Positions 60,107 to 61,776 of a stretch of 64,000 nucleotides of DNA are shown here, piece after piece. The DNA comes from Escherichia coli (lineage in GTDB: Bacteria; Pseudomonadota; Gammaproteobacteria; Enterobacterales; Enterobacteriaceae). The DNA is taken from NCBI RefSeq assembly GCF_003334305.1, contig NZ_QOWS01000007.1; one strand, 5' to 3'. A program made the position numbers and the translations under genes. Within the stretch, counting starts at the first letter, position 1. Each line of letters opens with the position of its first letter. A model generated the notes under the pieces. That model saw nothing but the letters and a program-made list of their open reading frames with translations. It had not been told where the DNA came from and ran no database searches.

Positions 60107-61534
60107 TTATTTCGTGTTTTTCGACGACGGCAATTCAATGCGGAAACAAACGTCTTGCCCGCTCTCGTCGACCAGATACAGTTCCCCTTGCATACGGCGA
60201 ATACAATCCCTGGCAATGCTTAATCCCAGACCGCTGCCCTTCACCGCCCCTTTTCGCTGGTGGCTTCCTTGAAAAAAGGGTTCGAAGATCATGGCGCGTT
60301 CCTCTTGCGGAATGGGTGTGCCTGTATTGATGACATCAATATAAACCCGTGCACCATGTAAGCTGCTGCGAAGGCAAATGTTACCGGATTCAGCCCCGTA
60401 GTGCACCGCATTGGAGTAAAGATTATCCAGTACGCTCATCAGCAGCATTGGCTCCGCCAGGCAAGCTGTTGCTTTGAGATCGACGTCGGTATGCATCATT
60501 TTAGCCCGTGCGGGCAGGCTATGAGCAGAAACCACTGTCTCCACCAGCGGTGCTAATTCAACATTCTCCAGTTCCACCGCACTGTCCGCCTGTTTACGGT
60601 TGTAATCAAGCAGTTGTTCGATCAGTTTTTGCAAATTGCGGCTGCTGCTATCAAGAATGCTCACCACCTCTTTTTGCTCTGGCGTAAGCGGCCCGACAAC
60701 CTGGTCAGCCAGTAATTCAGTGCCCTCGCGCATACTCGCCAGTGGCGTTTTTAATTCATGAGATAAATGTCTTAAAAATTGATGGCGTTGGGATTCCAGC
60801 CATGACAGGCGCTCACTTAACCAAAGAATACGTTGCCCAACCGAGCGTAACTCGCTCGGTCCACTGAACGAAACGCTATTGCCCAGAGAACGCCCTTCCC
60901 CCAGACGGTTGATCATGCGCTCGATATTTTTCACCGGCCCGATAATCATCCGCGTGAAAAGTAGCACCATCACCAGACTCACCAGAAATAGCACCAGCGA
61001 TTGCCAACCAAAATATTGCCCACGTTCGGCGATTTCACGCTGAAGTTGCTGCCCACGAGAGAACACCACTGTGCGCGTGGCCTGCACCATTTCGGTATTG
61101 GCACTGGCAAAGGCTTCAAGACGCGCGGCGGCGGCAGCATCGGGACCACTGTTGTTACACTGAAGTTGGGCCAGATTGTTCAAATCCTGACGCAATGCCT
61201 GGTAAAGTTTATCGTCTGGCAGTACGCCTGCGTGGGCATCGAGCATTTCGCTGTAACGCTTGCGCTGGCTTTGATAAACCTTCGCAAGCGTAGGATCGTC
61301 CAGCACGCAATACTGACGGTAGCTACGCTCCATCTCCAGCGCCGCGTTGGTCATCGCTTCACTACGCCGGGCATCAATAAGCGTAGTGCGGTTAACCAGC
61401 GCCGCCTGATCGCTAAGCGCATTCAGGCTTTGCCAGGCTTGCCATGCCAGCACCAACAGGGGTAGTAGAATTAGCAAAAATGCCAGCATTACCAGTTGTC
61501 GTAATGAGCGGGGAAAAACAGGCCAGCGTTTCAA
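60107..61534 (-). CDS. glrK: sensor histidine kinase GlrK (YfhK), 475 aa, probable TTG start
   Basis: HAMP and HisKA (HELKTPL) plus ATPase domains; start placed at TTG 61532-61534 (..KRWPVFPRSLRQL) from recalled N-terminus; next in-frame ATG is at 61489. Confidence 0.8.
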   Translation of the reverse strand: MKRWPVFPRSLRQLVMLAFLLILLPLLVLAWQAWQSLNALSDQAALVNRTTLIDARRSEAMTNAALEMERSYRQYCVLDDPTLAKVYQSQRKRYSEMLDAHAGVLPDDKLYQALRQDLNNLAQLQCNNSGPDAAAAARLEAFASANTEMVQATRTVVFSRGQQLQREIAERGQYFGWQSLVLFLVSLVMVLLFTRMIIGPVKNIERMINRLGEGRSLGNSVSFSGPSELRSVGQRILWLSERLSWLESQRHQFLRHLSHELKTPLASMREGTELLADQVVGPLTPEQKEVVSILDSSSRNLQKLIEQLLDYNRKQADSAVELENVELAPLVETVVSAHSLPARAKMMHTDVDLKATACLAEPMLLMSVLDNLYSNAVHYGAESGNICLRSSLHGARVYIDVINTGTPIPQEERAMIFEPFFQGSHQRKGAVKGSGLGLSIARDCIRRMQGELYLVDESGQDVCFRIELPSSKNTK

Positions 61535-61592
61535 GGTGTTACTCTCGTCAGACGCGAATAGCCTGATGCTAACCGAGGGGAAGTTCAGATAC

Positions 61593-61776
61593 AACAAAGC
61601 CGGGAATTACCCGGCTTTGTTATGGAATAAGGCGGTGCCTAACTCGACGTTTCGCCCGATGGTTGATATAGCTACGCTGATATCAGAAGTTGGACGGCAG
61701 GCACCTTGTTGTGCGTCATTCGAATTTTATGTAGCACGTCCCGAAGGGGCTGACATAAGTCGGTGAATGAGCCACT
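61593..61776 (-). ncRNA. glmY: GlmY small RNA
   Basis: Reverse complement reads AGTGGCTCATTCACCGACTTATGTCAGCCCCTTCGGGACGTGC... and ends with terminator AAAGCCGGGTAATTCCCGGCTTTGTTG; sigma54 promoter directly upstream. Confidence 0.8.

What the first reader, a model, noticed from the sequence alone, without database searches (positions are those of the whole stretch)
60107..61597. glrK probably initiates at TTG, and glrK-qseG-glrR-glnB are tightly packed
The ORF-track entry for glrK begins 21 codons upstream of the recalled N-terminus (MKRWPVFPRSL...). The codon at 61532-61534 is TTG and the next in-frame ATG (61489) would remove 15 further residues, so a TTG start is most consistent. Downstream, the qseG stop overlaps the glrR start by 11 nt, while a 164-bp gap separates glrK from qseG. 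A non-ATG start on the kinase of a two-component system could set kinase-to-regulator stoichiometry.
Basis: partly seen in the sequence, partly recalled or inferred. Interest (0 to 1): 0.25.

Follow-up and report, generated by a model that had tools for sequence, protein, structure and literature searches.

The report
glrK's annotated TTG start codon

Summary
The window is the E. coli chromosome: purL, glmY, glrK(qseE), qseG, glrR(qseF), glnB, all on the minus strand. Every coordinate in the finding checks out.

The TTG at 61534 is already the annotated start in K-12 (b2556) and in RefSeq. Comparative evidence from 81 enterobacterial species supports it strongly:
- The longer ORF-track start (61597) lies inside the glmY terminator stem and upstream of the published transcription start.
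- Codon periodicity begins exactly at the TTG.
- Met16 (ATG 61489) is not conserved.

I found no direct mapping of the N-terminus or of initiation.

"Tightly packed" is only partly true. qseG and glrR do overlap by 11 nt. The 164-nt glrK-qseG gap, however, is an E. coli-specific insertion of a 147-nt dispersed palindromic repeat. E. albertii and most other genera have a spacer of roughly 11-49 nt (modal 17) or overlapping genes.

The stoichiometry idea is plausible but unproven. The kinase has TTG or GTG, never ATG, plus a weak GAGAG Shine-Dalgarno in 81 of 81 loci. The regulator has ATG, with GAGG/GGAGG-type motifs upstream in most loci. Published counts give QseE undetectable against 36 QseF per cell. 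A neutral-site control shows that the TTG conservation is only suggestive.

Verdict: already known, low interest.

The parts
61593..61776 (-). glmY small RNA gene, including its terminator
   Evidence: Rfam GlmY_tke1 matches 61629-61776 at 147 bits against a gathering score of 33. The K-12 glmY annotation (b4441) maps without gaps onto 61593-61776, with 3 mismatches in 296 nt.
61593..61621 (-). glmY intrinsic terminator hairpin. The ORF-track start TTG (61597-61595) lies in its 3' arm.
   Evidence: In 26 genera the 12-pair stem is 96% paired, and 3 pairs show compensatory changes on both sides. Partners slid by 1-3 columns give only 30-57% paired.
61566..61594 (-). Weak sigma-70 promoter of glrK-qseG-glrR: -35-like TTGTAT (61594-61589), 17-nt spacer, -10 TAGCAT (61571-61566)
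   Evidence: The TAGCAT/TTAGCAT block is nearly invariant across genera. PMC6075780 places a sigma-70 promoter immediately downstream of glmY. In K. pneumoniae the mapped TSS lies 7 nt after the same TAGCAT (PMC3415461 supplementary file 5). The hexamer assignment is my reading of the sequence.
61559..61559 (-). Inferred transcription start (A), 25 nt upstream of the TTG
   Evidence: [quoted passage not shown] Position -25 from 61534 is an A, 7 nt after TAGCAT.
61542..61546 (-). Weak Shine-Dalgarno-like GAGAG, 7 nt before the TTG
   Evidence: A purine block (GAGAG, GAGAC or GGGA) is conserved at this position. The predicted duplex with the anti-SD is only -3.4 kcal/mol, against -6.3 for glrR.
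61532..61534 (-). glrK start codon TTG
   Evidence: Annotated start in RefSeq and K-12. The homologous codon is TTG in 75 and GTG in 6 of 81 loci. Codon periodicity begins here.
60107..61534 (-). glrK/qseE coding sequence (475 codons plus stop)
   Evidence: The product is 100% identical to proteins that NCBI names QseE/GlrK, with HAMP, HisKA and HATPase_c domains. Annotation.
59954..60100 (.). 147-nt dispersed palindromic repeat inserted in the glrK-qseG spacer. Arms lie at 59959-59983 and 60074-60098. TAA is duplicated at 60103-60101 and 59956-59954.
   Evidence: E. albertii (L006) and L005 (deposited as an E. coli strain) lack it and have a 17-nt spacer. It occurs at a median of 5 places per genome in 5,426 E. 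coli genomes. Inverted arms are 25 nt. The RNA folds at -60.3 kcal/mol, z = -5.0.
59229..59942 (-). qseG lipoprotein gene
   Evidence: NCBIfam equivalog NF007997 scores 357 bits against a cut-off of 234. Annotation.
57905..59239 (-). glrR/qseF response-regulator gene. Its ATG start overlaps the end of qseG by 11 nt.
   Evidence: NCBIfam equivalog NF011695 scores 982 bits against a cut-off of 763. The homologous start is ATG in all 81 loci, with GAGG/GGAGG-type motifs upstream in most.
57506..57844 (-). glnB (PII), 60 nt downstream of glrR

Best explanation
glrK (qseE) is translated from the TTG at 61534-61532, which is the start already used in the K-12 and RefSeq annotations. The 21 extra codons of the mechanical ORF are not coding. 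They run through the glmY terminator, the glrK promoter and the 25-nt leader.

The mRNA starts about 25 nt upstream of the TTG, from a weak sigma-70 promoter that abuts the glmY terminator. Initiation relies on a weak GAGAG Shine-Dalgarno and a near-cognate start codon.

Inferred, not shown: because glrK, qseG and glrR share one transcript, this weak initiation site is the most likely reason the kinase is made in far smaller amounts than the regulator, whose start has ATG and a GAGG Shine-Dalgarno.

Confidence is about 0.9 for the start site and about 0.5 for the stoichiometry role.
For: Evidence for the TTG start:
1. The annotation uses this start.
2. TTG 61597 sits in the 3' arm of the glmY terminator, which covaries across genera. 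It is also upstream of the published TSS at -25 (PMC6075780). K. pneumoniae has a mapped TSS 7 nt after the same TAGCAT.
3. Across 80 distinct sequences anchored at the TTG, mean column entropy by codon position is 0.44/0.15/1.11 downstream and a flat 1.45/1.54/1.48 over the 63 nt upstream.
4. Insertions of varying length interrupt the alignment upstream of the TTG. About 30 of the 81 loci have an in-frame stop within 14 codons upstream with no start codon in between.
5. Codon 16 is Met in only 63 of 81 loci, and is Thr, Ile or Val in the rest. Codons 2-15 vary mainly at third positions, so they are translated.
6. Codon 1 is TTG in 75 loci, GTG in 6 (4 lineages) and ATG in none.

Evidence for the stoichiometry role:
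- The glrR start is ATG in 81 of 81 loci, with GAGG/GGAGG-type motifs upstream in most.
- PMC6075780 reports QseE undetectable, QseG at 11 and QseF at 36 molecules per cell, together with weak qseE expression.
- GTG and TTG starts give roughly 8- to 12-fold lower expression than ATG (PMC11445065; bioRxiv 10.1101/063800).
Against: - I found no direct N-terminal sequence or initiation-profiling peak for GlrK. The supplements were either not held or did not mention the gene.
- Some lineages carry an extra in-frame ATG 3 or 6 codons upstream: Buttiauxella and Cedecea, L086, and Klebsiella-like L088. The start may therefore differ in those lineages.
- Conservation of T at the first base is not exceptional. 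Among 73 fourfold-degenerate sites of the same gene, 12 lack A entirely and 7 have a majority of at least 90%.
- Low QseE could also come from protein instability, poor detectability of a membrane protein, or extra transcription of qseG-glrR from an internal promoter.
Confidence: 0.88

Rival explanations
1. Translation starts at ATG 61489 (Met16) and gives a 460-aa kinase.
For: ATG is the canonical start. Public gene calls of 460 aa exist for this exact protein, such as P0003-P0005.
Against: Met16 is replaced by Thr, Ile or Val in 18 of 81 loci. Codons 2-15 show strong protein-level constraint, with invariant first and second positions and variable third positions. There is no Shine-Dalgarno-like motif upstream (-2.8 kcal/mol). 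The truncated protein would lose the basic N-terminal segment (K2, R3, R9, R12) that precedes the first membrane helix; that last point is inferred from the positive-inside rule.
Confidence: 0.03
2. Translation starts at the ORF-track TTG 61597, or at the adjacent TTG 61594, and gives a 495- or 496-aa kinase.
For: It is the longest ORF. Public calls of 497 and 538 aa exist in relatives. Read-through transcripts from glmY would contain these codons.
Against: Both codons lie in or at the edge of the glmY terminator stem. They are upstream of the mapped TSS, and read-through from glmY is reported to be virtually absent (PMC6075780). The 63 nt upstream of the annotated TTG show no codon periodicity. 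In many species the frame is interrupted by stops and insertions of varying length.
Confidence: 0.01
3. The TTG start is real but not an adaptation. It is an inherited, effectively neutral state. The low kinase:regulator ratio is set by other factors: the weak promoter, an internal promoter or differential mRNA decay linked to the spacer element, or protein turnover.
For: The neutral-site control shows that absence of A (12 of 73 sites) and a majority of at least 90% (7 of 73) are not rare in this gene. The 81 loci are phylogenetically related. More distant three-gene homologues without glmY appear to start at ATG. A promoter-like match lies at 60133-60106, at the 3' end of glrK, though the scan found 4 such sites against 2.1 expected by chance. 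PMC6075780 itself considered a possible internal promoter in the spacer.
Against: The start codon changed to GTG at least 4 times and never to ATG. The contrast with the invariant ATG of glrR, preceded in most loci by GAGG/GGAGG-type motifs, holds in all 81 loci. A shared promoter cannot by itself produce unequal amounts of proteins encoded on one transcript.
Confidence: 0.4

Closest known systems
E. coli K-12 glrK / qseE / yfhK (b2556, NP_417051.2) within the glmY-qseEGF locus described by Reichenbach 2009 and by Göpel and Görke (2011, 2018)
   Same: Same gene, same gene order, the same 1428-nt CDS beginning at the TTG, and the same 11-nt qseG-glrR overlap and ~164-nt spacer. The promoter lies immediately downstream of glmY, with the TSS 25 nt before the start codon.
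   Different: Nothing of substance. The window differs from K-12 by a few substitutions (3 in 296 nt).
Genes whose expression is kept low by a conserved near-cognate start codon, such as lacI with GTG in Enterobacteriaceae (PMC11445065)
   Same: A non-ATG start conserved across genera on a low-abundance regulatory protein. An 8- to 12-fold lower output is expected.
   Different: The effect has been demonstrated by mutation and competition for lacI. For glrK it has not been tested, and the conservation signal is statistically weak.
Translationally coupled two-component operons with overlapping stop and start codons (ATGA type)
   Same: qseG and glrR overlap by 11 nt here and apparently by 4 nt in most other genera. 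In 53 of 81 loci the qseG frame also opens with an ATG at or overlapping the glrK stop.
   Different: In E. coli proper the kinase-qseG junction is split by a 147-nt repeat. Coupling itself was not tested here.
Small dispersed enterobacterial intergenic repeats, possibly the RSA/BEE95 family (named from memory and from a reference title seen)
   Same: About 150 nt, intergenic, palindromic, and present at about 5 copies per E. coli genome.
   Different: Identity with RSA could not be checked, because no reference sequence was available.

Membership tests
GlrK/QseE sensor histidine kinase orthologue | Histidine-kinase domain set (HAMP, HisKA, HATPase_c) and identity to named QseE/GlrK proteins | tested here: met
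   The product is 100% identical over 475 aa to proteins that NCBI names QseE/GlrK, with PF00672, PF00512 and PF02518. NCBIfam has no GlrK-specific model, and all histidine-kinase equivalogs score below their cut-offs.
GlrK/QseE sensor histidine kinase orthologue | Conserved synteny: glmY, kinase, qseG, sigma-54 response regulator glrR | tested here: met
   glmY matches at 147 bits. The QseG and GlrR equivalogs score above their cut-offs. Annotation.
Genes initiated at a near-cognate (TTG) start codon | TTG in frame at the point where protein-level conservation begins, with no usable ATG that preserves the conserved N-terminus | tested here: met
Genes initiated at a near-cognate (TTG) start codon | Shine-Dalgarno element at functional spacing | tested here: inconclusive
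   A conserved GAGAG lies 7 nt upstream. The predicted pairing of -3.4 kcal/mol is no better than at the rejected candidate starts.
Genes initiated at a near-cognate (TTG) start codon | Experimentally mapped N-terminus or initiating-ribosome peak | not testable with these tools
   No dataset that mentions glrK, yfhK or qseE could be retrieved.
Rho-independent terminator (of glmY) | GC-rich hairpin followed by a T-rich tail, maintained by compensatory changes | tested here: met
   96% of cells are paired, and 3 pairs change on both sides.
Translationally coupled overlapping genes (qseG-glrR) | The downstream start codon lies within or abuts the upstream coding region | tested here: met
   The overlap is 11 nt here and apparently 4 nt (ATGA) in most other genera. 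Functional coupling was not tested.
RSA/BEE95 dispersed repeat | Sequence match to the published RSA consensus | not tested
   No reference sequence was available. Only the size, copy number and intergenic location agree.

The most novel reading that the evidence does not exclude
The weak TTG/GTG start of the kinase is an actively maintained governor that keeps QseE sub-stoichiometric to QseF throughout the Enterobacteriaceae. In E. coli proper, the lineage-specific 147-nt palindromic insertion has additionally uncoupled qseG/glrR translation from the poorly translated glrK and has added a stable RNA hairpin. On this reading, E. coli sets the three protein levels differently from E. albertii, Salmonella and Citrobacter.
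Probability: 0.3. Interest if true: 0.3.

Novelty: already known. Interest (0 to 1): 0.1.

Why it matters
The practical value is for annotation. Automated gene callers still produce 460-, 475-, 497- and 538-aa versions of this kinase, and the comparative evidence here shows that the 475-aa TTG model is the right one.

The stoichiometry idea would, if tested, add one more example of a conserved near-cognate start codon limiting a signalling protein. It would not change how two-component systems are understood.

The E. coli-specific repeat in the glrK-qseG spacer matters to anyone transferring qseEGF expression results between E. coli and Salmonella, Citrobacter or E. albertii.

Tried and rejected
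Searches for direct initiation or expression data, none of which helped:
- The Ribo-RET preprint and an eLife profiling paper have no supplements held.
- The TRAINSPOTTER N-terminomics supplements do not mention glrK, yfhK or qseE.
- My guessed PMC ids for Li 2014 and Thomason 2015 are not held.

Intermediate taxa:
- The word-indexed protein search returned only relatives at 80% identity or more.
- The 50%-cluster search jumped straight to homologues at 41-42% identity that lack glmY.
- As a result, only three intermediate loci were obtained (L086-L088), and all three have fragmented gene calls. Yersiniaceae, Erwiniaceae and Morganellaceae were not properly sampled.

Analyses that did not discriminate:
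- Shine-Dalgarno duplex energies do not separate the candidate starts.
- The simple promoter scan misses the real glrK promoter, which matches only 8 of 12 consensus positions, and its other hits are at chance level.
- The neutral-site control did not make the 'never ATG' observation significant.
- The weak Rfam hit to Xanthomonas sX9 inside the repeat (31.7 bits against a gathering score of 44) was set aside as below threshold.
- The literature search for RSA/BEE95 gave only a reference title.

Full report
**What the window is.** The region is E. coli chromosome. Rfam finds glmY at 61629-61776 on the minus strand, at 147 bits against a gathering score of 33. A 421-nt query across the glmY-glrK junction matches all 5,426 complete E. 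coli genomes at 95-100% identity. RefSeq annotation of a strain identical over that query, and of K-12 MG1655, gives purL, glmY, glrK/qseE, qseG, glrR, glnB and then hmp on the other strand. K-12 and the window align without gaps across the junction, with 3 mismatches in 296 nt. The annotated glmY gene therefore maps to 61593-61776.

**Check of the observation.** Every number in the finding is right.
- The mechanical ORF is 60107-61597 (496 aa) and begins at a TTG.
- A second in-frame TTG at 61534-61532 gives MKRWPVFPRSL... (475 aa).
- The next in-frame ATG is at 61489, codon 16.
- The qseG ATG is at 59942 and the glrK stop ends at 60107, leaving a 164-nt gap.
- The glrR ATG at 59239 overlaps the end of qseG (59229) by 11 nt.
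- The glrR-glnB gap is 60 nt.

**The TTG start is already the reference model.** K-12 b2556 (NP_417051.2) and the RefSeq record both annotate a 1428-nt CDS, which is the TTG at 61534. The experimental literature uses the same start. [quoted passage not shown] Counting 25 nt back from 61534 lands on an A at 61559, 7 nt after a TAGCAT hexamer at 61571-61566. A TTGTAT lies 17 nt further upstream. No other candidate start gives a sensible promoter geometry. In K. pneumoniae the experimentally mapped TSS of yfhK lies 7 nt after the same TAGCAT (PMC3415461 supplementary file 5).

**Independent comparative evidence.** One scan of species-representative genomes returned 80 loci across Escherichia, Citrobacter, Salmonella, Enterobacter, Kosakonia, Kluyvera, Buttiauxella, Cedecea and others. 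With the two annotated E. coli loci, 81 were usable.
1. The codon homologous to 61534 is TTG in 75 loci and GTG in 6, the latter in four separate lineages. It is never ATG.
2. Codon 16 is Met in only 63 of 81 loci and is Thr, Ile or Val elsewhere.
3. With 80 distinct sequences anchored at the TTG, mean column entropy by codon position is 0.44/0.15/1.11 for the 20 codons downstream. It is a flat 1.45/1.54/1.48 for the 63 nt upstream. Protein-coding constraint therefore begins exactly at the TTG and covers residues 2-15.
4. About 30 of the 81 loci have an in-frame stop within 14 codons upstream with no start codon in between. The alignment also shows insertions of varying length between the glmY terminator and the -10 box.
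5. The ORF-track TTG (61597-61595) lies in the 3' arm of the glmY terminator hairpin. That hairpin is 96% paired across 26 genera and has three pairs with compensatory changes.

Together these points exclude 61597 and 61489 as the main start. I found no direct N-terminal or initiation-profiling data.

**Caveats on the start.**
- Some lineages carry an additional in-frame ATG. It lies 3 codons upstream in most Buttiauxella and Cedecea loci, but is ATA in B. gaviniae and B. noackiae. It also lies 3 codons upstream in a glmY-linked locus at 57% identity (L086), and 6 codons upstream in a Klebsiella-like locus (L088).
- In Klebsiella that ATG is only 5 nt from the mapped TSS, whereas the homologous TTG has a GAGAC motif at normal spacing. 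The TTG remains the likelier start there, but this is inference.
- More distant three-gene homologues at 41-42% identity, without glmY, appear to start at ATG.
- Public gene calls for this protein family come in 460-, 475-, 497- and 538-aa versions.

**How tightly packed the operon is.** The qseG-glrR overlap is conserved. It is 11 nt in Escherichia and a few Enterobacter and Superficieibacter loci, and apparently a 4-nt ATGA overlap in most others.

The 164-nt glrK-qseG gap is not ancestral. E. albertii and L005 (deposited as an E. coli strain) have a 17-nt spacer, and most other genera have 11-49 nt (modal 17) or overlapping genes. Gaps of 163-165 nt occur only in E. coli proper. The difference is a 147-nt insertion at 59954-60100, flanked by a duplicated TAA. 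The insertion has the following properties:
- 25-nt imperfect inverted arms.
- A long RNA hairpin, at -60.3 kcal/mol, z = -5.0, with 0 of 200 shuffles folding as well.
- A median of 5 places per genome across all 5,426 E. coli genomes.
- A related copy just upstream of glrK in one Citrobacter-labelled genome (L051), and a partial inverted copy in the enlarged spacer of C. amalonaticus.

From memory this resembles the RSA/BEE95 family, but I could not test that.

In 53 of 81 loci the qseG frame opens with an ATG at or overlapping the glrK stop, 6-7 codons before the E. coli-type ATG. The NCBIfam QseG profile has 6 more N-terminal positions than the E. coli protein. The ancestral kinase-qseG junction may therefore have been translationally coupled, and in E. 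coli the insertion separates that ATG from qseG.

**Stoichiometry.** The sequence contrast is consistent. The kinase has TTG or GTG and a weak GAGAG motif (-3.4 kcal/mol) in all loci. The regulator has ATG in 81 of 81 loci, with GAGG/GGAGG-type motifs upstream in most (-6.3 kcal/mol in E. coli). Published data report weak qseE expression, with QseE undetectable against 11 QseG and 36 QseF molecules per cell. GTG and TTG starts lower expression roughly 8- to 12-fold. Since the three genes share a transcript, unequal amounts must arise after transcription, or from an internal promoter or differential decay.

This remains inference. As a control I looked at 73 fourfold-degenerate sites of the same gene in the same species. 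Twelve lack A altogether and seven have a majority base of at least 90%. Neither the 'never ATG' pattern nor the 92% T is therefore statistically striking.

**Verdict.** 'Tightly packed' holds for qseG-glrR but not for glrK-qseG, where a repeat element was inserted in E. coli. The stoichiometry idea is reasonable but untested. Novelty: already known. Interest: low.

Noticed in passing
window 59954-60100: The glrK-qseG spacer holds a 147-nt palindromic dispersed repeat. It has 25-nt inverted arms, a TAA duplication and an RNA hairpin at -60.3 kcal/mol. It occurs at about 5 copies per E. coli genome and is absent from this site in E. albertii. It may be the RSA/BEE95 family.
   Followed up: partly
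L051 3330-3469; L013 4952-5012: A related copy of the same repeat sits immediately upstream of glrK in a Citrobacter-labelled genome, where the usual TTAGCAT promoter block is missing. A partial inverted copy lies in the 218-nt glrK-qseG spacer of C. amalonaticus. The qseEGF locus has therefore been hit by this element independently several times.
   Followed up: no
window 60107-59942, and the junctions of L005-L082: In 53 of 81 loci the qseG reading frame opens with an ATG at or overlapping the glrK stop, 6-7 codons before the E. coli-type ATG. The differences among Salmonella and Citrobacter in those codons are synonymous, and the NCBIfam QseG profile has 6 extra N-terminal positions. qseG may start earlier, and be coupled to glrK, outside E. 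coli.
   Followed up: partly
L088 1501-1521 (Klebsiella-like; upstream 50-mer identical to K. pneumoniae KPN_02881): The annotated Klebsiella start is an ATG only 5 nt from the experimentally mapped TSS. The TTG homologous to the E. coli start lies 18 nt further on, behind a GAGAC motif. The Klebsiella gene model may be 6 codons too long.
   Followed up: partly
L086, L087, L088: In three intermediate relatives the kinase gene is split into several short gene calls. These are frameshifts, reflecting either pseudogenes or assembly errors.
   Followed up: no
window 59987-60038: There is a weak Rfam match to the Xanthomonas sRNA sX9 inside the repeat element, at 31.7 bits (E = 0.005) against a gathering score of 44. 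It is probably a chance hit or a shared hairpin shape.
   Followed up: no
window 60106-60133 (minus strand): A sigma-70-like match (TTGCCG, 16 nt, AATAAT) lies at the very end of glrK and could in principle drive qseG-glrR independently. The scan found 4 such sites against 2.1 expected by chance, so it carries little weight.
   Followed up: no
window 56250-57461: The mechanical ORF for hmp (403 aa) is also over-extended, by 7 codons relative to the annotated 1191-nt gene, which begins at MLDAQ.
   Followed up: no
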